44,111 nucleotides of DNA from a phage, in the sequence record PZ379076.1; one strand, written 5' to 3'. The translations under genes and the position numbers were made by a program. The notes below the pieces were generated by a model. That model worked only from the letters and a program-made list of their open reading frames with translations. It searched no databases and was not told where the DNA came from. Shown in pieces: positions 8,116-34,749 of the stretch; position 1 is the stretch's first letter; every line of letters begins with the position of its first letter.

Positions 8116-8502
8116 ATGAATCTTAAAGCAACCGTCGTAGCAGGAGCATGTTTCATCATCCTGGCTTACACACACGGCATTTATCAGTACCGCAGCGGCT
8201 GGCACGAAGGCCGCGCTAATCTCGTTTCGCAGCAACAGCAAAAAGCACAGGCTGAGTTAGCTAAGAAAACACAACGGCAGCAGCAGGACGAATCTAAGGC
8301 CGCCGCCGCCGATTCCAAAGGCAAGACGAAATCAGAGGTGATTACCCGTGAAGTCGTTAAGTACATTAAAACGCCTGGTCGCAGCGGGTGCGCTTTTGAC
8401 CCTGAGCGCGTGCAGCTCAAGTCCCGCGCCGTCGCAAACGCTAATTCCATTACCGGATACGACGATGATGCAGCCTCCGTGCAAACTGGCAGCGCCAAGT
8501 AG
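8116..8502 (+). CDS. Rz-like inner-membrane spanin
   Basis: 128 aa; N-terminal hydrophobic helix, Q/K-rich coiled-coil-like middle, and an overlapping lipoprotein gene in another frame. Confidence 0.65.
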   Translation: MNLKATVVAGACFIILAYTHGIYQYRSGWHEGRANLVSQQQQKAQAELAKKTQRQQQDESKAAAADSKGKTKSEVITREVVKYIKTPGRSGCAFDPERVQLKSRAVANANSITGYDDDAASVQTGSAK

Positions 8503-14851: not shown

Positions 14852-14856
14852 AACTA

Positions 14857-14880
14857 AGGCCCCTTTCGGGGCCTTTTTCT
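14857..14880. terminator. bidirectional rho-independent terminator
   Basis: Stem aggcccc (14857-14863) / ggggcct (14868-14874), loop tttc, T-run after it; sits between convergent genes. Confidence 0.75.
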
Positions 14881-15434
14881 TACAAACCTAATTTTAAAGC
14901 AATGTCTATAACGTTCGATTTAACGTCACCCGGTATGATGTAGGTGTCGTAATCTTTTACACCACTAACATCGTACAGATAGCCACGGCTATCGCAGATG
15001 AACGTATAGCCGTCACGATGGAGGCGGACGATTCGCACGTCATGCCCCGCGGCGACGATAGGGGCAACTTCACTGGCGAATCCACCATCGGACACTACAA
15101 AAACTTCGTCGCCGTCAGGCAAGTTTTCAGCAAGATACTTACCGAAATAATCATCGCCGAATACCGGTTTAATGAATTGCTCAGAAATGGCAATCATTAA
15201 CCGGCGGCGGGACAACCCATTAAGAAAACCCTCGGGTTTTTCTTTCCGCGCCCGGTCGTCGTAGCCGTCGAGAAATTCGTGGTAAGCATCCTGGCCTAAC
15301 GCTGCCAAAGCAATATTGAACATTGGGTTCTTGAAACTGGTAGTTCCTTTCGCAAAGCCCATTTCTACCAGCGCCATAGCAAGCGTGTCTTTCCCGCAAC
15401 CCGCAGGGCCATTAAGAATAATTACCTTAGCCAT
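14880..15434 (-). CDS. P-loop nucleotide kinase (dNMP-kinase-like)
   Basis: 184 aa; Walker A GPAGCGKDT, a GKDT-type P-loop as in T4 gp1-type dNMP kinases. Confidence 0.65.
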   Translation of the reverse strand: MAKVIILNGPAGCGKDTLAMALVEMGFAKGTTSFKNPMFNIALAALGQDAYHEFLDGYDDRARKEKPEGFLNGLSRRRLMIAISEQFIKPVFGDDYFGKYLAENLPDGDEVFVVSDGGFASEVAPIVAAGHDVRIVRLHRDGYTFICDSRGYLYDVSGVKDYDTYIIPGDVKSNVIDIALKLGL

Positions 15435-15922
15435 TATTTATCGCTCCCGTGTGGTTTTAAGTGTGTAGAGTTCCCGTTACAGTCGTATTCGGTAACTGCG
15501 TGTGCGGTTATGCCGAGGTCACGGAAATGCTTTATTACCGCTGGGGAGTCGTCGAACGCACACAAGATTCTTTCCAGTCCGAAAGCACGCAACACCTCTT
15601 CTTTAATTACGATGTCTTTTCTGTTGTCGTGTTTGCTGCGCATGATTAGCGTGTCAAACCTAACGTTATTCTCTCGTAACCATTCGCGAGTCTCCTCCTC
15701 AGCGTCATCACTTCGCCCGGTAAGGATAATTATAGTAAGTCCGGAATGCCACAGTACGCTACACAAATGGATATTGTCGTATATCGGAGCGTCATCTTTG
15801 CAGGCCATGTTAAATGGCTTCCACGCCCACGTTTCTCCGTAGTTATCTTTTGGTAACAGGTGTAAGCGATGGGTACCGTCGGCCAATGTCCCGTCTAAAT
15901 CGAAAATTACAATATCTTTCAT
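15434..15922 (-). CDS. HAD-superfamily phosphatase (nucleotidase or 3'-phosphatase-like)
   Basis: 162 aa; N-terminal IFDLDGTLADG is HAD motif I. Confidence 0.7.
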   Translation of the reverse strand: MKDIVIFDLDGTLADGTHRLHLLPKDNYGETWAWKPFNMACKDDAPIYDNIHLCSVLWHSGLTIIILTGRSDDAEEETREWLRENNVRFDTLIMRSKHDNRKDIVIKEEVLRAFGLERILCAFDDSPAVIKHFRDLGITAHAVTEYDCNGNSTHLKPHGSDK

Positions 15923-17049
15923 CCCAGCATCTCCGGTGAAATAGTTAAACGTGCGACCTCGCCATATTCGGCGCTATAAGTAATTACATTTGCACTGCGG
16001 CCCGACATCCATCCGCCGCGAGAGGCGTAGGCGTCTTTAGCCGCTAAGGTGCGGTGTTGCTCAACAATCATGTTACGGCTTTCTACAATCTTCTGGTGGT
16101 GCAGATGGCCTACGTGGGCGTAGCTGTAAACACTCTCGCCGAACGCTTTACGGAACTTGGCAATCATAACCGGTTCGATAGCGTCGAATCGTGCTTTATG
16201 CCCGTGATGGAAGAACAGCGTCGTTTTGCCGTGTTGCACCATCTTGTAAACATCCGGCGACGTATCGACGAACACGCGCGGCTCATTGTCGTACAGCGTA
16301 CTGAACATCTCAGCCAACCAAATCATACCCGATTCGTCGTGATTCCCTTGCACGATAAGCAAGCGAACATTTTTATGCTTAACCAACGCCATATCAACGA
16401 CACGGCGGACCATACGAATCATGTAACGGACCAGTTTCTGATAGCGCGTGTCAGCGTCAAGGACATGACCGCTTGCGGGCGTAACGGCATCAAGACTATC
16501 GAAGTGCGCTAAGTCGCCAAGAAGATTGATAACCCCAGTACCGGCATCCGGTGCTTTCTGGAATGCTGCATCGAACCAACGAGAGAACAGGTCTTCCGCA
16601 ATCTTCATGTCCCAGTCGTCGCCACTCTCGTCGGCCCAGGCCAGCATACCGAGATGGAAATCGGATACAGTGTAAAGATTGAGCAGCTTATCGTCCCGTT
16701 TGGCACGAACGGCTTTAACAGGTGCAACGGGCGTAATCTCCGATTTCATGCCTTCGATCACGGCTTTCATCAATTCAACCTGACGTTCGGCGTCAGTGTC
16801 GGTCTTAACCCATTGCAACTTAGTGTTGCCGAACTCATCCACCAGTGACGACGTACCTTTAATCTTATAGCCGTCCGGGACAAGGTGGCTAACATCACGT
16901 CCGTGACCTACACCTTTCTTAGCCAGCTTCGCTTTACGGATACGAATTACGCGGTCTGAGATGCCGTATTTACGGGCGATGTCTACATTCTTCATTCCGG
17001 CGTTCAATTCTTCCTGTAACTGTTCGTCGGTTATTTTCTTCCGGGCCAT
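15919..17049 (-). CDS. calcineurin-like metallophosphoesterase with N-terminal HTH-like segment
   Basis: 376 aa; metal-binding motifs VSDFHLG, GDLAHFD, GNHDE, GHLHH in canonical order; N-terminal ~45 aa basic helix-turn-helix-like. Confidence 0.7.
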   Translation of the reverse strand: MARKKITDEQLQEELNAGMKNVDIARKYGISDRVIRIRKAKLAKKGVGHGRDVSHLVPDGYKIKGTSSLVDEFGNTKLQWVKTDTDAERQVELMKAVIEGMKSEITPVAPVKAVRAKRDDKLLNLYTVSDFHLGMLAWADESGDDWDMKIAEDLFSRWFDAAFQKAPDAGTGVINLLGDLAHFDSLDAVTPASGHVLDADTRYQKLVRYMIRMVRRVVDMALVKHKNVRLLIVQGNHDESGMIWLAEMFSTLYDNEPRVFVDTSPDVYKMVQHGKTTLFFHHGHKARFDAIEPVMIAKFRKAFGESVYSYAHVGHLHHQKIVESRNMIVEQHRTLAAKDAYASRGGWMSGRSANVITYSAEYGEVARLTISPEMLG

Positions 17050-17087
17050 GCTTACTTCCTCGTGTTTAGGATTTGTCTTATAGTAGC

Positions 17088-17279
17088 CTACTTCTCTTTC
17101 ACGTTCGAGTTACAAGCCCAGATTAAAATGAATACCCACGGCAACAGAACCCACCCGAGAAATAAGTTAGCCATGAATATCGCTAGCTTTGCTTTATGGT
17201 TTCGCATATGGGCCACAAAAAACGGGATAAAATAAACGCCTACAACAATAATTAAAAAGAACATAGCGATACCGGTCAT
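17088..17279 (-). CDS. small two-helix membrane protein (superinfection-immunity-like, putative)
   Basis: ATG 17279 with AGGAG SD (track ORF opens at 17306); two hydrophobic helices around HMRNHKAKLAIFMANLFLGW. Confidence 0.4.
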   Translation of the reverse strand: MTGIAMFFLIIVVGVYFIPFFVAHMRNHKAKLAIFMANLFLGWVLLPWVFILIWACNSNVKEK

Positions 17280-17321
17280 AACATAACTCCTGATTTGAGA
17301 TAACATCGTTGGTGTAAGTGA

Positions 17322-17350
17322 ATAGTACGCTATTATATCAGGGTGTGCAA
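17322..17350 (-). promoter_or_regulatory. promoter, TTGCAC-N17-TACTAT family (drives the minus-strand cassette)
   Basis: TTGCAC (17350-17345), 17-nt spacer with AATAG-N4-CTATT, TACTAT (17327-17322) on minus strand. Confidence 0.5.
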
Positions 17351-17457
17351 GTAGTATGTTAGAATAATTTTGCGCCTAGTGTCGCACACGAAAAGCGGGT
17401 GGTTCCCGTCTGGCGCATTTCCTTTAACCAGTAACCTCTTAACCAAAGGATTAAAGA

Positions 17458-17874
17458 ATGAAACTTTCTGATTTTTATTACGAAGCTGAAGCTGAAAAGG
17501 GTGCACGTATGCCGATACCATTAAAAGACGGTACCGATTCCGGGGAATGGCTTAATGTTGTTTCTCCTGAGGCAGACGTTGCCGTTAAGGCTATGCGCGC
17601 GTTCACCCTTGCATACCGGGCAGTGTTAGGGAAATTAAAACCGCTTCGTGATAAGTGCGAAGAGATGAAAGATTTCTCTGAATACAACCTGAAGATGGAA
17701 GACGCGGCGACGGACCTTAACCGTCAGTTAGCGGTTGAATTGGTTAACGGGTGGAGCCTTGACGACGAATTCAATAAAGAGAATCTGAACACACTCCTGA
17801 CGCAATATAAACGACTCGCGGAACTTGTTGTTGTGTTTCATAACGAACAACTGCACCAGCTACAGGAAAAGTAG
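17458..17874 (+). CDS. tail assembly chaperone (putative, G-like)
   Basis: 138 aa immediately upstream of the tape measure gene; AAAGGA SD. Confidence 0.5.
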   Translation: MKLSDFYYEAEAEKGARMPIPLKDGTDSGEWLNVVSPEADVAVKAMRAFTLAYRAVLGKLKPLRDKCEEMKDFSEYNLKMEDAATDLNRQLAVELVNGWSLDDEFNKENLNTLLTQYKRLAELVVVFHNEQLHQLQEK

Positions 17875-18239: not shown

Positions 18240-19647
18240 TGTAGCTAGTTTAGTCGTAAAAGTATCAGAGCAAGGCGCGAAAGCCACATCAGACCGTCTT
18301 GATAATCTTTCAAAGTCCGCAAAAGTAGCGGGGGCCGCCGTAGCAGGCCTCGCTTCTATCGTAGCGGCTACCGCGTATAAAGCCGCCCAAGAACTAGTTG
18401 ACTCACAGCGGCAACTGGACAAGATGTCCGCCAGTTTGAAGACCTTAACCGGAAGTACCCAAGGTGCTAAACAGGCGCTAAGTATCCTGCAAGATTTTGC
18501 ACGCGACACCCCATACGGACTGGAGCAGGCGGTGGAAGGCTTCCGTAAGCTGGTGGCCCTTGGCCTTACCCCATCCGAGGAGGCGTTGCGGTCCTACGGC
18601 AATACCGCATCGGCTATGGGTAAGGACCTTAATCAGATGATTGAGGCGGTAGCCGACGCCAGTACGTTTGAGTTCGAACGCCTCAAAGAATTCGGCATCA
18701 AAGCCAAGCAGAACAAAACCGACGTAGAGTTTACGTTCCAGGGAACGACAACCGTAGTTAAGAAAAGCGCTGCCGATATTGAGCAGTATTTACTTAACAT
18801 TGGTAACGTAAATTTTGCGGGGGCTATGGCTGACCAGGCCAACACCCTTAACGGCGCTATCGCGAGTGCCAGTGACTCATGGTCGCAGCTAAAAATGACG
18901 CTTGCCACCAGTCTTGATGTTGGCGCACTTGCTGAACCTATCAGGTATATCGATGACTTGATTCAGGAATTAAACGCGTCTGTTGCTTCCGGTGAATTAG
19001 CCGCTGAAATGCAGATGTGGGGGAACATCGCGTCGGAAGTAGGAAGCGCTATCGAGATGTCATTCGACGCTGCGTTTGGCTTTGTTGGCGATGCCATCAA
19101 CGGGCTTAATGAACTGTGGGATTTCAGCAGCAAGAGTATTACGGATAGCGGAGAACAAACGGCTACTACCATCGCTGAATCCGCCGCCGATGCGCTTGAC
19201 TTCATCGCGGAAGAGTTCACCGCGATGGAGAGATTCTTTGAAGATATGGTTAAAGGCGCGCAGGACGCGGGCCGTCTTGTACGAGCCGCTTTTACCCCCG
19301 GGGAATCAGTAGACGTAGCTAAAAATATCAACTTCCAGCTTGGCCTGGCTTTGGATACCCAGCGCGATGTCGCCGACGTTACGCGTAAAAGTTTCCGCGA
19401 ACAGGTAGAAGCTCAACAGGATATTGTAGCGTTAAAACGCGCGGCGTATGACATCGATAAGGAGTCCGCAAAAGCTGAGGGGTTAAACAAATTTAAGGTA
19501 ACCGGAACTGGCGGCGGTTCTGACGATGACGGGTCAGCCGCAAAAGCCGCTAAGAAAGCGGCGGACGCGTTCGAGCGCCAGAAAAAGCGGCGGAAGACTT
19601 CTACTATCAGTCAATCCATCTTAATGATGACGTATTTCAGAAAATAG
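18232..19647 (+). CDS. tail tape measure protein, N-terminal ~470 codons (frame broken near 19580)
   Basis: Long Ala/Gln/Glu-rich helical ORF after chaperone genes; ends 20 codons after an A5 run. Confidence 0.7.
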   Translation: MADVASLVVKVSEQGAKATSDRLDNLSKSAKVAGAAVAGLASIVAATAYKAAQELVDSQRQLDKMSASLKTLTGSTQGAKQALSILQDFARDTPYGLEQAVEGFRKLVALGLTPSEEALRSYGNTASAMGKDLNQMIEAVADASTFEFERLKEFGIKAKQNKTDVEFTFQGTTTVVKKSAADIEQYLLNIGNVNFAGAMADQANTLNGAIASASDSWSQLKMTLATSLDVGALAEPIRYIDDLIQELNASVASGELAAEMQMWGNIASEVGSAIEMSFDAAFGFVGDAINGLNELWDFSSKSITDSGEQTATTIAESAADALDFIAEEFTAMERFFEDMVKGAQDAGRLVRAAFTPGESVDVAKNINFQLGLALDTQRDVADVTRKSFREQVEAQQDIVALKRAAYDIDKESAKAEGLNKFKVTGTGGGSDDDGSAAKAAKKAADAFERQKKRRKTSTISQSILMMTYFRK

Positions 19648-22854: not shown

Positions 22855-24332
22855 TCCTGCACTACACGCGAAACGCTGATGGCGCTTTCAACCGTACAAA
22901 ACACGTCGGGATGCCGATGGAGTTTGTCGTTAACCGTATCCCGGACGGCGTTCCGGTACGCGTCTATCTTGGCGAGATTGGTGATGATACTGATGTTACA
23001 GACGACTTCGACGCGCTCAAAGACGAGGACGCCGTGTACCACATTATTGAGGGCGCTGGCGGCGGCATTGGCGACGCCATCGGGAGTGTATTCAGTTTCA
23101 TCCTTAAGCCAATCGCCAAATTGTTCGGGCTAAACACAGCGGCTAACGCTAATTATTCCGCTACCAACAATCAGGCTACGTCGCCTAACAACAGTCTCAC
23201 CGACCGCTCAAACAAGCCACGACCTTATGAGCGTTCCTATGATATCTGCGGGACAGTGCAGACCATCCCCAATGACCTGATGCAGACATATAAGGTGTTT
23301 AATGCCGCGGGTGCGCTTATTGAATATGCGTACTATGACGCCGGTCGAGGGTATCTGCATATTGAGGAAGACGGTGTAACGGAGGCGGATACCCGAATCA
23401 GCGAGATAACTGGCTCGTCGGTGACGGTGTATCCCCCTTATACTTCGCCAAATAATACCAGCACCCCACAATTGCATATCGGCGACCCTATAGACCAGAA
23501 ATTGTACGTTACATTTAAAAACGCCGATGTCGATGGCGCTGTTCTTCCCGCACCTAATGACATCGCTATAGACGTGCAGGACTACACTGTCCAGCGGCAG
23601 GGAACAACAGGTGTTGTAATAGGCGATGACGCTGGTTTCGATGAGTTTTTGGCTGTCGGGGACCTGGCATATTTCGATAACGTATATGCGGACACAACTC
23701 CTGGGTCTTTAGGTAATGAGGTTAACTTAGACGGGAGGTACACTGTTCTTTCGGTTAGTGAAACCACCATTATTGTGGACGTCAGTACAAATCAATCAGT
23801 ATGGAACCAGCTAGGGGCGTCTGTGTGGTTTATAGGTGAAGAGGGTAACCATCTTATAGGCCCGGCGGACACTTACGCGGCTTCTCTCTCTGAATGGGCG
23901 TACATCACCCGCGGTACTGTCGACCGTGTTGTAGCCAATGTCGCCGCCAGCAACGGCATGTACAAATACAACGGCGACTATAACCGCGCTTCAGTGACAG
24001 TCGAACTGCAATACCAGATGGTAGATGAATTGAAACAGCCTGTAGGTGACATATTTACCGTACGAGGAACCGTAACAGGCCGGAACACGGATTACACAGG
24101 GATTACTCTTTACGGAAGTTTACCAACTGCTTCCAGATTCCGCGCCCGTATGCGTCGTGTTTCGGACACCGATAAAGATTTTGAAGGTACTGTTAGCGAC
24201 GAGGTTACTTTCACTAATCTGTATGGGCAGTCGCTGGACACAACCCCCACTACGGCAACCGTACTACCGTACACTGCGCCCGTAAACAAACCCCACGTGC
24301 AGCCGAGGTGTCCGAACCGGAACTGCGCATGA
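22845..24332 (+). CDS. tail tip protein with gpI-like N-terminal region
   Basis: 495 aa (TTG start in track); glycine-rich hydrophobic segment GAGGGIGDAIGSVFSFILKPIAKLFG as in lambda I-type proteins. Confidence 0.5.
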   Translation: MAIILHYTRNADGAFNRTKHVGMPMEFVVNRIPDGVPVRVYLGEIGDDTDVTDDFDALKDEDAVYHIIEGAGGGIGDAIGSVFSFILKPIAKLFGLNTAANANYSATNNQATSPNNSLTDRSNKPRPYERSYDICGTVQTIPNDLMQTYKVFNAAGALIEYAYYDAGRGYLHIEEDGVTEADTRISEITGSSVTVYPPYTSPNNTSTPQLHIGDPIDQKLYVTFKNADVDGAVLPAPNDIAIDVQDYTVQRQGTTGVVIGDDAGFDEFLAVGDLAYFDNVYADTTPGSLGNEVNLDGRYTVLSVSETTIIVDVSTNQSVWNQLGASVWFIGEEGNHLIGPADTYAASLSEWAYITRGTVDRVVANVAASNGMYKYNGDYNRASVTVELQYQMVDELKQPVGDIFTVRGTVTGRNTDYTGITLYGSLPTASRFRARMRRVSDTDKDFEGTVSDEVTFTNLYGQSLDTTPTTATVLPYTAPVNKPHVQPRCPNRNCA

Positions 24333-28087: not shown

Positions 28088-29430
28088 TTCTTACCTCGTC
28101 TCTTCATGTAATTAAGCAACTCTTCCTGTACCGATTTCTTCTCGTCGGTACGCGCGGCGACAACCTCGTCCAGAGTGTCTTTAGCAACGATGTGATAAAG
28201 GAACACCGGGCGCTCGTGTCCTGCTTGCTTCTGGCGTACCGGGCCTATACGCTCGACAACCTGCAAATAGTGCTCAAGGTTCCAGCCTTGCGAGATGAAC
28301 GCCAGATGATGTCCGCCGTCCTGTAAATTCAAACCATGACCGGCTGACGCAGGATGTACGCATAGGATTTCGATTTCACCGCGGTTCCACGCTTCCATCT
28401 GCTTATTACCCTTAGCGCCTTTTGCAAACGCCTGGGCCTGCGGGAATCGCTTAAGGATGCGCTCCAGTTCGTGCTTAAACTGATAGGCCACCAGTAGCGG
28501 CGCTCCCTGTAACTCCTCCACAATGGACTCGAGCGCATCCAGTTTCGTGTCGTGCACTTTCTCCCAGTCTTTGGTCGCTTCGCCATCCGGCCCTGACACA
28601 TACACGGCACCAGATGCAATCTGCAAGCACTTTGAGGTCTTCGCCGCAGCGTTAGCCGCTTCAACTTCCCCGCTCTCCAGTTCTGCGAATAACTTCTCCT
28701 CCATATCTATGTACGCCTGACGCGCTTTCTTCGGCAGGTCTATTTCCACCGGTACGATAACAGGCGCTTCACAACCAAACCACTCGGCAGGGTCTATGGT
28801 CAGGCTGATGTCTTTCATCTTCTGATGAATCTCATTATCCGCACCCGGTCGTGCATGATACTCGCGGGCCATAGCCGATTTACCTTTCTGTACCGAGTTA
28901 AACCAGCGGTCGGTGAATGCTGTGTACGAAGAGCCGAGGCGCTCGCCAGCGTCGATAAACCAGTTCTGACCCCACAAGTCTTTGAGGCCGTTTGGTGACG
29001 GTGTGCCTGTCAGGTTGATGAAACGCTTAACCTTTCCGAACGCAACCTTGCTGAGCGCCTTTGCCCGCTTGCTACCACCCGAACGGCTGCGGAACGATTT
29101 AAGCTTCGTGCTTTCATCGGCAACGATAACCGTAAAAGGCCAGTCGTCTTTGCCGTAGTAGTCAATTAGCCACTCGATAACTTCGTAGTTAGTGCACACC
29201 ACGTTAGCATCTGACTCCAGCGCTGCGATGCGGCGCTTCTCCGAACCAGTTGCATCTACGACACGCAGACAAGGGAATTGCCATTTCTCTTGTTCAGCGG
29301 GCCACGTACCGGACGCAACACGTAACGGGGCAAGGATTAACACGCGGTCCTCTTCCGTAAGCTGCCCGTTGCGGAACAGGCGGTTGAGCACCCACATAGT
29401 GGAGGAGGTTTTACCTCCCCCATTCCGCAC
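28084..29430 (-). CDS. SNF2/SF2-family helicase, as called in this frame (N-terminus displaced by a frameshift)
   Basis: 448 aa; GGGKTS (motif I), VIVADESTKLK (DExx), LTGTPSPN (motif III), late HPASAGHGLNLQ; track ORF starts on GTG just downstream of a C5/G5 run. Confidence 0.8.
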   Translation of the reverse strand: MRNGGGKTSSTMWVLNRLFRNGQLTEEDRVLILAPLRVASGTWPAEQEKWQFPCLRVVDATGSEKRRIAALESDANVVCTNYEVIEWLIDYYGKDDWPFTVIVADESTKLKSFRSRSGGSKRAKALSKVAFGKVKRFINLTGTPSPNGLKDLWGQNWFIDAGERLGSSYTAFTDRWFNSVQKGKSAMAREYHARPGADNEIHQKMKDISLTIDPAEWFGCEAPVIVPVEIDLPKKARQAYIDMEEKLFAELESGEVEAANAAAKTSKCLQIASGAVYVSGPDGEATKDWEKVHDTKLDALESIVEELQGAPLLVAYQFKHELERILKRFPQAQAFAKGAKGNKQMEAWNRGEIEILCVHPASAGHGLNLQDGGHHLAFISQGWNLEHYLQVVERIGPVRQKQAGHERPVFLYHIVAKDTLDEVVAARTDEKKSVQEELLNYMKRRGKK

Positions 29431-33322: not shown

Positions 33323-33511
33323 ATAAAATTTCGCAATACGGACTATGTTCTCGAAATCATTCATATCAACGGGTTCGAATTCATCCTCCACATGGTTGTA
33401 TCGCACCATCGTGCCGTTCAGGAACGTAAACGATTCCGAATGGATATAACCGCCCCAGCGCCATATCATCACAAAATCTTTATCTGTGGGCATTTCATTT
33501 ACTTGAATCAT
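33308..33511 (-). CDS. hypothetical protein
   Basis: 67-aa ORF in track, coupled to the upstream nuclease gene. Confidence 0.5.
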   Translation of the reverse strand: MIQVNEMPTDKDFVMIWRWGGYIHSESFTFLNGTMVRYNHVEDEFEPVDMNDFENIVRIAKFYLTPE

Positions 33512-34749
33512 TATAAATCCTCCTCTGTTACCCTATTCCACTCAGGACGTTTGTCGTCTGCCGTTGCAACACATGGTGCGCCTGGCTTACGGGTAATGAA
33601 GTCTTTCAGTTCTTCTTCCGGTATGACTTTAACCGCTTCGGTTGGCGTCATGAGCACTTGCTTCATTAGCGCTATGCCATACTCGCCAGCCACTTTCTCT
33701 GCATCTTTCCACGCACGATTACCCGGGCGGCCTTCAACCAGCTTGTACCCCGGAACTTTCTTACCGGAATGCAACGCGGCAGCCATCGCTTTCTCAACCT
33801 TGTCGATGTGCTGGCGCAACAACGGCAACTTCTCATACTCAGCTACGAGTTGCTCCGGCGTAAGTTCCAGGGCAAAGTCGTCCTCCAGTTCTTCCGCCAG
33901 CACAGAGTTAACCGTCTTTGTACGCGCGGCGCACTGTTCAGAGAACCGGCACCACTGACAACCATCAACCGACGGCTTGAAGTCTGACGCTTTCAGGTTC
34001 TTCTTGCCACGGTGATAAGCATCAAGCGCTAACAGTGCGCGTTTCTGTGCGAACTTAGCGAACAGCTCCATACCTTCAACCGAGATGTCCCACTCCGACG
34101 CGCCGCCAGTGTACGGCTGGAAGATTACCAGACGAACAACTGTTATGTTATAACGTCTCTTGAGTCGGCGATAAACACCGAGAGCGTAAAGCATAAGCTG
34201 CTTGTTTTCTTTCGCTTCGACGCGATGCCGCCCGGTTTTCAGGTCGCCGATAATGAGCATGTGCTCGTCGGTGTTTGCCAGTTCCTGGACAGCAACGAGG
34301 TCAGCGGTTCCGAACGTCTCAACGCCTTCATACCCCGGATGCAATACCTCAGTAAGATTGACACGCATTTCCAGCTTGGCGTAAGTCGCTACGTCTATAA
34401 TCGCTTTGCAGTAGTCGGTGTACTTGCGCACCTGCTCAATCATGTCCGCCGTAATCAGTACCGCGCCTTTCATCGGGCTGATTAGCGCCTTAATCTGACC
34501 TTTGCCTTCATCCAGTACGTAAGCGCCGACTTCACGCTCCAACGGCAACGCAGTGCCGCGTATATAGGCGTTGAGATGGACCTCAGCTATGGTGTGCATG
34601 GCGGTTCCTAATACAGCGGCTTTACCCGACGTGTTAGGGGTATCTTTTTCACACGCCAGCGACGCAGCGCATGACAGCCACTTTTTAGCGCCTGACGGTG
34701 ACAGTAAGGCGTGTACATCATTATTGCCGCCTCGTTCTTTTAGAATCAT
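33511..34749 (-). CDS. PD-(D/E)xK nuclease (DUF2800 / Cas4-like, putative)
   Basis: 412 aa; ...TADLVAV...IIGDLKTGR...QLMLYA core plus Cys cluster (CQWCRF...C); GGAGGAGG SD. Confidence 0.6.
   Translation of the reverse strand: MILKERGGNNDVHALLSPSGAKKWLSCAASLACEKDTPNTSGKAAVLGTAMHTIAEVHLNAYIRGTALPLEREVGAYVLDEGKGQIKALISPMKGAVLITADMIEQVRKYTDYCKAIIDVATYAKLEMRVNLTEVLHPGYEGVETFGTADLVAVQELANTDEHMLIIGDLKTGRHRVEAKENKQLMLYALGVYRRLKRRYNITVVRLVIFQPYTGGASEWDISVEGMELFAKFAQKRALLALDAYHRGKKNLKASDFKPSVDGCQWCRFSEQCAARTKTVNSVLAEELEDDFALELTPEQLVAEYEKLPLLRQHIDKVEKAMAAALHSGKKVPGYKLVEGRPGNRAWKDAEKVAGEYGIALMKQVLMTPTEAVKVIPEEELKDFITRKPGAPCVATADDKRPEWNRVTEEDL

What the first reader, a model, noticed from the sequence alone, without database searches (positions are those of the whole stretch)
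14857..17350. Opposite-strand four-gene cassette inside the tail module: kinase, HAD phosphatase, HTH-metallophosphoesterase, Imm-like membrane protein
Between the major tail gene (ends 14851) and the chaperone gene (starts 17458) lies a self-contained minus-strand unit with its own promoter (17322-17350) and a bidirectional terminator (14857-14880), the classic moron arrangement. The mix of a P-loop nucleotide kinase, a HAD phosphatase, a calcineurin-like phosphoesterase fused to a DNA-binding-like N-terminus and a small membrane protein could be a nucleotide-pool or nucleic-acid-end processing module. Calcineurin-like enzymes include cyclic-nucleotide phosphodiesterases, so counter-defence by degrading signalling nucleotides is one speculative possibility; a superinfection-exclusion role for the membrane protein is another.
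Basis: partly seen in the sequence, partly recalled or inferred. Interest (0 to 1): 0.7.

Follow-up and report, generated by a model that had tools for sequence, protein, structure and literature searches.

The report
Swappable enzyme island in phage tail genes
A separately transcribed four-gene island sits backwards inside the tail genes of a Kagunavirus-type coliphage; it is real and already annotated in relatives, and it most likely carries a DNA-cutting enzyme plus two nucleotide-processing enzymes, not a device against cyclic-nucleotide immune signalling.

Summary
Four intact minus-strand genes lie between the tail-tube and tail-chaperone genes, bounded by a conserved promoter-like site and a hairpin terminator. 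The window is a Kagunavirus-type phage (Guernseyvirinae), about 99% identical to Escherichia phages BEU33 and BEU35, and relatives already annotate these genes.

The unit is a mosaic island with fixed boundaries and variable cargo.
- Slot 1 holds a small envelope protein, here of the T4 Imm family.
- Slot 2 holds a helix-turn-helix (HTH)-fused metallophosphoesterase (MPE), present in 7 of 8 relatives sampled without regard to the MPE.
- Slot 3 is swappable. Here it is a PNKP-type HAD phosphatase plus a T4-gp1-like dNMP kinase, found in about half of Kagunavirus-type records.

Best reading: DNA breakdown plus nucleotide or end reprocessing. The cyclic-nucleotide counter-defence idea has no support. 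No function has been tested. An int-alpA-type structured RNA lies beside the promoter.

The parts
14856..14875 (.). Bidirectional hairpin terminator (AAGGCCCC-TTTC-GGGGCCTT) that closes both the tail-tube gene and the cassette.
   Evidence: Found by the scan. RNA fold -19.9 kcal/mol, z -3.5. The hairpin core matches in all 22 Guernseyvirinae loci held at that point, at the same boundary in the loci checked.
14880..15434 (-). P-loop kinase, 184 aa, of the T4 gp1-like dNMP-kinase family. It forms a swappable two-gene block with the HAD gene.
   Evidence: phrog_139, 3e-44. A family profile has T4 dNMP kinase 1DEK as its best solved match (3.5e-6) and no match to T4 PNK at E up to 1. Only 53 phage records match at 80% identity or more, against 117 tail-tube records at that level.
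15434..15922 (-). Stand-alone HAD phosphatase, 162 aa, of the PNKP 3'-phosphatase type (DxDGT..HR, GR, K, DD motifs).
   Evidence: Pfam PF25109, 3.3e-20. Profile against PDB: Pnkp1 1.9e-16 and T4 PNK 5e-11. T5 Dmp falls in the same phrog_415 but aligns only at the N-terminus. It is 54% identical to the HAD of Aeromonas phage Tola.
15919..17049 (-). HTH-fused metallophosphoesterase, 376 aa: HTH at residues 8-44, a beta-hairpin and helix at 61-104, and the MPE core at 119-376. It is the near-constant gene of the island.
17088..17279 (-). Small two-helix membrane protein of the T4 Imm family. It is 63 aa from the ATG at 17279; the open frame extends to 17306.
   Evidence: PF14373, 1.6e-13, 50.8 bits against a cut-off of 27.9. 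phrog_1039. GGAG at 17290-17287. In some relatives it is replaced by 108-120-aa proteins with signal-peptide-like N-termini.
17322..17350 (-). Promoter-like site of the cassette: -35 TTGCAC (17350-17345), 17-nt spacer, -10 TACTAT (17327-17322).
   Evidence: Read from the sequence. The architecture is conserved in the 24 relatives' loci aligned despite spacer changes. The consensus scan did not call it.
17357..17365 (+). Neighbouring element: TGtTAGAAT, an extended -10-like site facing the chaperone and tape-measure genes.
   Evidence: Read from the sequence. TGnTAGAAT is kept in the Kagunavirus-type loci. This is an inference only.
17369..17433 (+). Neighbouring element: an int-alpA-type structured RNA in the leader of the chaperone gene.
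   Evidence: Rfam RF02996, 36.6 bits against a gathering score of 35.8, full model length. Over 12 distinct sequences 98.8% of cells pair, three pairs show compensatory changes, and the slid controls show none.

Best explanation
The unit is an independently transcribed accessory island. Its boundaries are fixed in Guernseyvirinae (promoter-like site and hairpin terminator) and its cargo is mosaic.

- **First gene (inferred function).** A small inner-membrane protein of the T4 Imm family, most likely acting at the envelope, for example in superinfection exclusion.
- **Near-constant gene (fold shown, activity inferred).** An HTH-tethered, metal-dependent phosphodiesterase of the Mre11/SbcD/PolD-DP1 structural type. 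It most likely cuts or degrades DNA.
- **Cargo block in this phage (families shown, substrates inferred).** A PNKP-type 3'-phosphatase and a T4-gp1-like dNMP kinase, translationally coupled to the nuclease gene. They most likely reprocess the products: the phosphatase removes 3'-phosphates, and the kinase phosphorylates 5'-dNMPs, or 5'-OH ends. DNA breakdown products then re-enter the phage dNTP supply.

The same three enzymes, in the same order, form a mobile block in the DNA-metabolism modules of T7-like podophages.
For: - **Anatomy and conservation of the boundaries:**
- **Mosaic cargo:**
- **MPE catalytic motifs** are invariant in 58 diverse homologues.
- **DNA-binding domain.** The N-terminal HTH gives weak GerE/FixJ-type matches.
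- **Kinase.** The family profile's best solved match is T4 dNMP kinase (3.5e-6), with no match to T4 PNK.
- **HAD.** It matches PNKP phosphatase domains and shares phrog_415 with the characterised dNMP phosphatase T5 Dmp.
- **Recurrence of MPE, HAD, kinase in that order:**
  - with the orthologous MPE (53% identity) in Pectobacterium phage PP99 and ECBP5-type podophages, between endonuclease VII and DNA ligase;
  - with a different MPE family (phrog_221) in Aeromonas phage Tola.
- **Slot substitution.** In LIMEzero-type phages the kinase slot holds a dATP/dGTP diphosphohydrolase, a nucleotide-pool enzyme.
- **Precedent.** T5 A1 combines an N-terminal DNA-binding domain with a C-terminal metallophosphatase nuclease domain. 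It drives host DNA degradation, alongside the dNMP phosphatase Dmp (bioRxiv 10.64898/2026.04.02.716235; PMC12916289).
Against: - No activity, expression timing or phenotype has been measured for any of the four genes.
- The Foldseek ranking against PDB is non-discriminating.
- There is no significant sequence match to any solved MPE or to T5 A1, and A1 is not among the top 50 viral fold hits.
- MPE nucleases normally leave 5'-phosphate and 3'-OH ends, which would need neither a 3'-phosphatase nor a 5'-kinase.
- A dNMP phosphatase co-expressed with a dNMP kinase would run a futile cycle, unless the HAD is 3'-specific.
- The HAD is closer in sequence to RNA/DNA end-healing enzymes than to T5 Dmp.
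- Many relatives do well without HAD+kinase, and GRNsp27 lacks the MPE at this locus.
- Host DNA degradation by Guernseyvirinae has not been documented in the papers searched.
Confidence: 0.42

Rival explanations
1. End-healing or repair module. The kinase and HAD act together as a split polynucleotide kinase-phosphatase, with the MPE as a 2',3'-cyclic or 3'-phosphodiesterase as in bacterial Pnkp. Together they restore ligatable ends on RNA (for example tRNAs cut by anticodon nucleases) or on nicked DNA.
For: - The HAD profile matches bona fide repair enzymes: Pnkp1 of the Pnkp1-Rnl-Hen1 system at 1.9e-16 and T4 Pnkp at 5e-11, and Pfam HAD_PNKP.
- Kinase plus phosphatase is the canonical healing pair.
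- From established knowledge, Clostridium thermocellum Pnkp uses an MPE as its phosphatase.
- In T7-like phages the triad is followed directly by an ATP-dependent ligase.
- The patchy presence among near-identical phages suits a counter-defence cargo.
Against: - The kinase family matches T4 dNMP kinase, not the PNK kinase domain, which gives no hit at E up to 1.
- No RNA or DNA ligase is annotated in the 96%-identical genome SHAK7858.
- The ligase next to the triad in PP99 best matches ATP-dependent DNA ligases, as in the replicative ligases of T7-type phages, and not a Pnkp-type adenylyltransferase.
- In LIMEzero-type phages a nucleotide-pool enzyme takes the kinase slot.
- BASEL Guernseyvirinae phages, taken as a group, are sensitive to the anticodon nuclease Ec2ApeA (10.64898/2026.01.26.701840). 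Which of them carry the pair was not checked; Bas71 does not.
Confidence: 0.22
2. The HTH-MPE is a replication or recombination nuclease. It would process phage DNA ends or intermediates as a stand-alone Mre11/SbcD-like enzyme rather than degrade host DNA, and HAD+kinase would be unrelated passengers.
For: - The nearest folds are Mre11, SbcD and DP1.
- In Drexlerviridae the gene follows the helicase, VRR-NUC and Dam methylase genes.
- In T7-like phages it lies between endonuclease VII and DNA ligase.
- It is widespread: 2051 phage records and 4624 clusters.
Against: - There is no Rad50/SbcC-type partner in the cassette or in the annotated relative.
- There is no sequence-level match to Mre11 or SbcD (0.27-0.47).
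- The phage already has a PD-(D/E)XK exonuclease and a Gp2.5-like annealing protein in its replication module.
- GRNsp27 lacks the gene at this locus.
- The repeated linkage to HAD and kinase, even with a non-orthologous MPE, argues for a shared pathway.
Confidence: 0.2
3. One reading: the MPE is a phosphodiesterase that destroys cyclic-nucleotide immune signals such as those of CBASS, Pycsar, Thoeris or type III CRISPR.
For: - The island is accessory-like.
Against: - The protein carries a fused HTH.
- It is present in 7 of 8 relatives sampled without bias and is spread across several phage families in DNA-metabolism contexts.
- It has no PADLOC match and no sequence match to any solved phosphodiesterase.
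- From established knowledge, the known anti-signalling nucleases (Acb1, Apyc1, AcrIII-1) have other folds.
Confidence: 0.04

Closest known systems
Phage T5 pre-early A1 / Dmp system, with the later dNMP kinase Dnk
   Same: - A1 combines a DNA-binding N-terminal domain with a C-terminal metallophosphatase-type nuclease and drives host DNA degradation.
- Dmp is a HAD phosphatase in the same phrog_415 as the window's HAD.
- A small two-helix membrane protein (T5.005) lies next to A1.
- The unit is separately and early transcribed.
   Different: - A1 and the window MPE share no significant sequence similarity (E 0.28) and belong to different PHROGs.
- A1 is not among the top 50 viral fold hits.
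- Dmp aligns with the window HAD family only over the N-terminal motif.
- T5 does not couple the phosphatase and the kinase in one operon.
T4 Pnkp (PseT) and bacterial Pnkp1 (Pnkp1-Rnl-Hen1): polynucleotide 5'-kinase/3'-phosphatase end-healing enzymes
   Same: - The HAD domain is of the same type (PF25109; PDB 4xrp 1.9e-16, 1ltq 7.9e-10), with the DxDGT..R motif.
- A P-loop kinase is encoded next to it.
   Different: - Kinase and phosphatase are separate proteins here, in the reverse order.
- The kinase resembles T4 gp1 and not the PNK kinase domain.
- No ligase partner is found in this phage group.
T4 gp1 deoxynucleoside monophosphate kinase (PDB 1DEK)
   Same: It is the best solved relative of the kinase family profile, matched over two stretches (3.5e-6), and it shares the GxxxxGKD/T P-loop. 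The kinase falls in phrog_139, labelled 'dNMP kinase'.
   Different: - The similarity is distant.
- The window protein is shorter (184 aa against 241 aa).
- Substrate specificity is unknown.
Mre11/SbcD nucleases and the PolD DP1 proofreading exonuclease
   Different: - There is no sequence-level relationship.
- There is no Rad50/SbcC or polymerase partner.
- An N-terminal HTH plus beta-hairpin module takes the place of a capping or OB domain.
T4 Imm (superinfection immunity protein, PF14373)
   Same: The Pfam match covers the full domain and scores above the cut-off. Both are small two-helix membrane proteins.
   Different: The window protein is 63-72 aa. No exclusion phenotype has been tested. 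Alternative secreted proteins occupy the slot in relatives.
Morons and accessory islands of lambdoid and other siphophages
   Same: It has its own promoter-like site and terminator, it is inserted between conserved late genes on the opposite strand, and its cargo varies between close relatives.
   Different: The island as such is ancestral to the subfamily. Its boundaries and the MPE are kept in nearly all members, and its base composition is not atypical.
Host defence systems Metis (MisA calcineurin-like + MisB HAD) and PUA-Cal-HAD
   Same: They pair a calcineurin-like phosphoesterase with a HAD phosphatase that acts on or senses nucleotides (10.1101/2025.11.05.686725; 10.64898/2026.01.15.699771).
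   Different: Those are bacterial systems. The 2023 PADLOC library, which predates both, gives no match, and no direct sequence comparison was possible. The phage MPE has an HTH rather than a PUA domain.

Membership tests
Moron (independently transcribed accessory unit inside a conserved module) | Own terminator | tested here: met
   A hairpin lies at 14856-14875. Its core matches in all 22 Guernseyvirinae loci held at that point, at the same boundary in the loci checked.
Moron (independently transcribed accessory unit inside a conserved module) | Own promoter | tested here: inconclusive
   TTGCAC-17-TACTAT is weak against the consensus and the scan did not call it. It is nevertheless conserved across the relatives' loci. 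No start site has been mapped.
Moron (independently transcribed accessory unit inside a conserved module) | Present in some close relatives and absent in others | tested here: met
   This is met for the cargo. HAD+kinase occurs in 53-57 records at 80% identity or more, against 117 tail-tube records at that level, and is swapped in Bas71, SETP7 and Jersey. The MPE is absent at this locus in GRNsp27. The island itself, meaning its boundaries and slot 1, was never absent.
Moron (independently transcribed accessory unit inside a conserved module) | Atypical base composition | tested here: not met
   GC is 0.48-0.52 in the cassette, within the range of the window.
PNKP-type HAD 3'-phosphatase (PF25109) | Profile score above the curated cut-off, and the HAD motifs DxDGT, S/T, K and DD | tested here: met
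   73.1 bits against a cut-off of 27.6. D8, D10, T12, R19, G69/R70, K107 and D124/D125 are invariant in the family alignment. The PDB matches are PNKP enzymes only.
PNKP-type HAD 3'-phosphatase (PF25109) | 3'-phosphatase activity on polynucleotide ends | not testable with these tools
   This needs an enzyme assay. T5 Dmp, in the same PHROG, acts on 5'-dNMPs, so the family label does not fix the substrate.
T4 gp1-type dNMP kinase | P-loop kinase with significant similarity to gp1 beyond the P-loop | tested here: met
   The profile matches 1DEK at 3.5e-6 in two stretches, residues 1-46 and 128-203 of 1DEK. phrog_139, 3e-44.
T4 gp1-type dNMP kinase | Phosphorylation of dNMPs | not testable with these tools
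   This needs an enzyme assay.
Polynucleotide kinase (T4 Pnkp kinase domain) | Sequence similarity to the PNK kinase domain | tested here: not met
   1LTQ is not among the matches of the kinase profile at E up to 1.
Calcineurin-like metallophosphoesterase superfamily | The five metal-binding motifs: DxH, GD, GNH(D/E), H, GHxH | tested here: met
   D130/H132, G178/D179, N236/H237, H282 and G314/H317 are invariant in 58 sequences. The fold is confirmed. The Pfam scores fall below the curated cut-offs.
Mre11/SbcD nuclease family | Sequence-level membership, a capping domain and a Rad50/SbcC partner | tested here: not met
   The profile against PDB gives E 0.27-0.47. No SbcC-like gene is annotated in the close relative. 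Only the fold is nearest.
Class III cyclic-nucleotide phosphodiesterase (CpdA/Rv0805) | Closest structural or sequence relationship to CpdA/Rv0805 | tested here: not met
T5 A1 family (phrog_1745) | Sequence or profile similarity to A1 | tested here: not met
   BLASTP E 0.28. The PHROGs differ. A1 is absent from the top 50 viral fold hits.
T4 Imm superinfection immunity family (PF14373) | Full-length domain match above the cut-off, in a small protein with two hydrophobic helices | tested here: met
   50.8 bits against 27.9, covering positions 1-42 of 42. The hydrophobic segments are visible in the sequence.
T4 Imm superinfection immunity family (PF14373) | Blocks DNA entry of superinfecting phage | not testable with these tools
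   This needs plating assays.
Known anti-phage defence proteins (PADLOC-DB 2.0) | Any profile match | tested here: not met
   None of the four proteins has a match at E up to 0.01. The library predates Metis and PUA-Cal-HAD.
int-alpA RNA (RF02996), neighbouring element | Score at or above the gathering threshold, with the structure supported by covariation | tested here: met
   36.6 bits against 35.8, which is borderline. Three compensatory pairs are seen, 98.8% of cells pair, and the slid controls show none. Eight relatives' loci scanned in the same call fall below the gathering score.

The most novel reading that the evidence does not exclude
The swappable HAD-kinase pair is a counter-defence cargo that erases nucleotide alarm signals. 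When the phage's nuclease shreds host DNA, it releases mononucleotides such as m6dAMP, which Metis and PUA-Cal-HAD sense, and 5'-phosphorylated deoxydinucleotides, which ApeA senses. A 3'/5' phosphatase and a dNMP kinase made from the same transcript as the nuclease would convert these molecules before the sensors bind them, or would rebuild dNTP pools drained by such systems.
Probability: 0.1. Interest if true: 0.75.

Novelty: new member of a known kind. Interest (0 to 1): 0.36.

Why it matters
**The MPE family.** The HTH-MPE family is very large: more than 4600 clusters at 50% identity and about 2000 phage genomes, spanning Guernseyvirinae, Drexlerviridae, T7-like podophages, and vibrio and campylobacter phages. 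It has no solved structure and no tested function. If it is the host- or phage-DNA nuclease of these small phages, it would explain how they obtain nucleotides. It would also explain why they trigger immune systems that sense DNA breakdown products.

**The mobile triad.** The MPE-HAD-kinase block is a compact, testable three-enzyme pathway.

**A natural experiment.** Near-identical phages with and without HAD+kinase already exist, for example this phage and Bas71.

**Engineering.** The fixed promoter and terminator boundaries mark a tolerated insertion site for engineering therapeutic Kagunavirus phages.

Tried and rejected
- **Homology of the MPE to T5 A1.** Rejected at sequence level, by PHROG and by fold ranking among viral proteins. 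Only the domain architecture is analogous.
- **The HAD as a T5 Dmp orthologue.** Both fall in phrog_415, but the family profile aligns with Dmp only over the N-terminal motif (1.6e-4, probability 50%). It matches PNKP phosphatases over the whole domain.
- **The MPE as a member of a solved family.** No significant sequence match. Foldseek against PDB does not discriminate.
- **A defence-system origin.** No PADLOC matches.
- **The 76-aa gene that replaces HAD+kinase as a kinase remnant.** Rejected, because there is no similarity.
- **The ligase beside the triad in PP99 as a Pnkp-type adenylyltransferase.** It best matches ATP-dependent DNA ligases.
- **The perfect TGaTATAAT at 17340-17332 as the conserved -10.** Relatives read CAATATAAT or TTAATAG there. 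The flanking TTGCAC/TACTAT pair is what is conserved.
- **A second MPE in the replication module (33511-34749).** It is a PD-(D/E)XK / DUF2800 exonuclease.
- **Searches that failed or gave little.**
  - The search for related loci on the 58-sequence alignment failed because the alignment was too diverse.
  - The first protein search returned only near-identical sequences.
  - Literature searches found no functional study of these genes in Kagunavirus, Guernseyvirinae or Drexlerviridae.
- **Not tested.** Whether GRNsp27 carries the MPE elsewhere in its genome, and whether T4 gp1 or T5 Dnk themselves fall in phrog_139.

Full report
**Identity of the window**

The 3.4 kb around the finding is 99.3% identical to Escherichia phages BEU33 and BEU35. 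It is 88-96% identical to many Kagunavirus-type phages, including Golestan, SHAK7858 and K1G. In all, 340 phage records match it. These are small siphoviruses of the subfamily Guernseyvirinae. Many of those records already annotate the four genes, as 'DNA repair exonuclease', 'polynucleotide kinase', 'deoxynucleoside monophosphate kinase' and 'superinfection immunity protein'.

**Check of the observation**

The family evidence for each is as follows.
- The 184-aa protein matches phrog_139 at 3e-44.
- The 162-aa protein matches Pfam HAD_PNKP at 3.3e-20.
- The 376-aa protein matches phrog_704 at 3.5e-167.
- The 72-aa protein matches Pfam Imm_superinfect at 1.6e-13.

The three enzyme genes overlap at their junctions by 4 bases and by 1 base, which suggests translational coupling. 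Imm probably starts at the ATG at 17279, behind a GGAG, which gives 63 aa as annotated in relatives.

The terminator hairpin at 14856-14875 is found by the scan and folds better than shuffled sequence (z -3.5). Its core, GGCCCC-N4-GGGGCC, matches in all 22 Guernseyvirinae loci held at that point. In the loci checked it lies at the cassette/tail-tube boundary whatever the cargo.

That is too weak for the consensus scan, and the scan found no excess of promoter-like sites in the region. The same -35/17/-10 architecture is nevertheless kept in the 24 Kagunavirus- and Jerseyvirus-type loci aligned, including loci where the spacer has changed. The promoter is supported by conservation only, not by a mapped transcript.

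**The unit is a mosaic island**

I compared relatives found through the MPE and relatives found through the tail-tube gene. The comparison shows fixed boundaries and three slots.

*Slot 1* holds either an Imm-family protein or a 108-120-aa protein with a signal-peptide-like N-terminus (phrog_14165 and similar).

*Slot 2* holds the HTH-MPE. It is present in 7 of the 8 relatives sampled through the tail-tube gene. Salmonella phage GRNsp27 has only a slot-1 gene at this locus.

*Slot 3* is variable. It holds HAD+kinase, or a 76-aa gene, or an HNH endonuclease, or an Ant/Rha-type gene, or combinations of these.
- At nucleotide level the HAD+kinase segment (window 14883-15919) is replaced cleanly between the MPE stop codon and the terminator.
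- At 80% identity or more, the kinase matches 53 phage records and the HAD matches 57. The tail-tube protein matches 117 records at that level and 495 at 60% or more.
- The pair is therefore present in roughly half of the Kagunavirus-type records and is rare in Jerseyvirus.

Bas71, whose tail-tube protein is 99.5% identical to the window's, lacks both the pair and the Imm-type gene. GC content is unremarkable. This is moron-like behaviour for the cargo, but the island itself is ancestral to the subfamily.

**The metallophosphoesterase**

The family is very large. It has 4624 cluster representatives at 50% identity with E up to 0.001. It matches 2051 phage records, covering Guernseyvirinae, Drexlerviridae, and vibrio, rhodobacter, cyanobacterial and campylobacter phages.

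In 58 diverse members the canonical metal-binding residues are invariant: D130/H132, G178/D179, N236/H237, H282 and G314/H317. The enzyme is therefore expected to be active.

No solved structure is related at sequence level. The AlphaFold model is confident (pLDDT 92.5). It shows an N-terminal three-helix HTH, a beta-hairpin and helix, and then the MPE core.

- LpxH scores 13.8 and the cyclic-nucleotide phosphodiesterase Rv0805 scores 12.0.
- The protein phosphatases PP5 and PP1 score 8.6-9.2.
- Eleven of the top 16 hits are Mre11, SbcD, DP1 or the Pol-delta B subunit.

Together with the fused HTH, this favours a DNA nuclease. The margin is modest, and this is an inference, not a demonstration. 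The protein fails the membership test for Mre11/SbcD: it has no sequence relationship and no Rad50/SbcC partner. It also fails the test for T5 A1. A1 is a functional analogue only. Published work describes it as an N-terminal DNA-binding domain plus a C-terminal nuclease domain that drives host DNA degradation (10.64898/2026.04.02.716235; PMC12916289).

**The HAD phosphatase and the kinase**

A profile of the HAD family matches only PNKP phosphatase domains among solved structures: Pnkp1 at 1.9e-16 and T4 Pnk at 5e-11. T5 Dmp, a characterised 5'-dNMP phosphatase, falls in the same phrog_415. However, it aligns with the window's HAD family only over the N-terminal DxDGT..HR motif. The family label therefore does not settle the substrate.

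A profile of the kinase family has T4 dNMP kinase (1DEK) as its best solved match, at 3.5e-6 over two stretches. It shows no match to T4 polynucleotide kinase. No ligase is annotated in the 96%-identical genome SHAK7858.

**Linkage across unrelated phages**

The order MPE, HAD, kinase is not peculiar to Kagunavirus.
- Pectobacterium phage PP99 and ECBP5-type podophages are T7-like, with a family A DNA polymerase and a T7-type head-tail connector. They carry the orthologous HTH-MPE at 53% identity, then HAD, then kinase. The block lies between endonuclease VII and an ATP-dependent DNA ligase.
- Aeromonas phage Tola has the same order with a different MPE family (phrog_221) and a HAD 54% identical to the window's.
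- Arno160 has a phrog_221 MPE directly upstream of the kinase, and VP-HS15 has one about 0.4 kb upstream of it.
- In LIMEzero-type phages the kinase slot holds a dATP/dGTP diphosphohydrolase.
- In Drexlerviridae the MPE stands alone, between the helicase/VRR-NUC/Dam methylase genes and the lysis genes. HAD and kinase lie elsewhere in the genome, adjacent to each other or close together.

Repeated linkage in the same order argues for a shared pathway in DNA and nucleotide metabolism, particularly because the linkage holds with a non-orthologous MPE and allows a nucleotide-pool enzyme as a substitute for the kinase.

**Mechanism and rivals**

The best-supported reading (confidence about 0.42) has four steps.
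1. The island is transcribed on its own, probably by host RNA polymerase.
2. Imm acts at the envelope.
3. The HTH-MPE binds and cuts DNA.
4. The phosphatase and kinase reprocess the products for phage DNA synthesis.

What is shown: the gene families, the conserved catalytic residues, the fold ranking, the mosaic structure and the cross-family linkage. What is inferred: every substrate, the timing of expression and the biological role.

The main rival is a split PNKP-style end-healing system (about 0.22). The identity of the HAD and the neighbouring ligase in podophages support it. The gp1-like kinase and the absence of a ligase in this phage group weaken it. A second rival is a recombination or replication nuclease with unrelated passengers (about 0.2).

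A more novel reading cannot be excluded (about 0.1). The pair might clear nucleotide alarm signals that recently described defence systems sense during host DNA degradation (10.1101/2025.11.05.686725; 10.64898/2026.01.15.699771; 10.64898/2026.01.26.701840).

**Novelty and interest**

The cassette is real but ordinary in kind. It is an accessory island built from known enzyme families and already annotated in dozens of genomes. What this analysis adds is threefold.
- The slot structure of the island, with fixed boundaries.
- The mobile MPE-HAD-kinase triad shared with T7-like phages.
- A structural argument that the widespread but uncharacterised HTH-MPE is nuclease-like.

I rate it a new member of a known kind, with interest 0.36.

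**Seen in passing**

The divergent intergenic region carries an int-alpA-type structured RNA on the plus strand at 17369-17433. It scores just above the Rfam threshold. Three compensatory base-pair changes across Guernseyvirinae support the structure.

Three long genes of the window are frame-broken at homopolymer runs. These breaks are probably sequencing errors.

Noticed in passing
window 17369-17433 (+): An int-alpA RNA motif (Rfam RF02996) lies in the leader of the tail-chaperone gene, just downstream of a conserved TGnTAGAAT (17357-17365). It scores 36.6 bits against a gathering score of 35.8. The element is conserved in all sampled Guernseyvirinae loci. The three-helix structure is 98.8% paired over 12 distinct sequences, with three compensatory pairs (CG/UG/UA, GC/CG, UA/GC/CG). 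The window holds only one copy. Finding this prophage-associated motif at the start of a lytic phage's tail operon is unexplained. The close relative also encodes an AlpA-like 'excisionase and transcriptional regulator'.
   Followed up: partly
window 19581-19587, 24245-24248, 29418-29421: The tape-measure gene, the central tail protein gene and a helicase gene are each split into two frames relative to SHAK7858. Each break lies at a homopolymer run (A5, C5, C5). These are most likely sequencing indels rather than biology. The four cassette genes are intact and full length.
   Followed up: partly
L095 (Salmonella phage GRNsp27) 5674-6253: Between the tail-tube and chaperone genes this Guernseyvirinae phage has a single 120-aa protein with a signal-peptide-like N-terminus and no MPE. 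The near-constant nuclease-like gene is therefore dispensable at this locus, or it sits elsewhere in that genome.
   Followed up: partly
L088 (Bas71) 8125-8451; L010, L012, L019, L021; L022, L023: In place of the Imm-family gene, slot 1 holds 108-120-aa proteins with signal-peptide-like N-termini (phrog_14165 and a related type ending in ..FAYGE). These may be alternative envelope or exclusion factors.
   Followed up: no
L031 7809-8318 (LIMEzero-type podophage): A dATP/dGTP diphosphohydrolase (PF18909, 8.4e-29) follows the MPE and HAD genes, in the position where other phages carry the dNMP kinase.
   Followed up: no
L025-L028 (Escherichia phages of the bov25_1D / Maverick type): An MPE 76% identical to the window's lies between the endolysin gene and the small and large terminase genes. 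The position is entirely different, which implies horizontal exchange of this gene between siphovirus lineages.
   Followed up: no
GenBank records OR594183.1 and PV052270.1: The taxonomy lines of SHAK7858 (Autographiviridae; Kayfunavirus) and SE126_1NRH (Rountreeviridae; Minhovirus) disagree with their Guernseyvirinae-type gene content and sequence identity. They look mis-assigned.
   Followed up: no
window 17333-17521 (-): A 62-aa ORF, annotated as a 37-aa hypothetical gene in SHAK7858, overlaps the conserved promoter region and the int-alpA element. It is probably not a gene.
   Followed up: no
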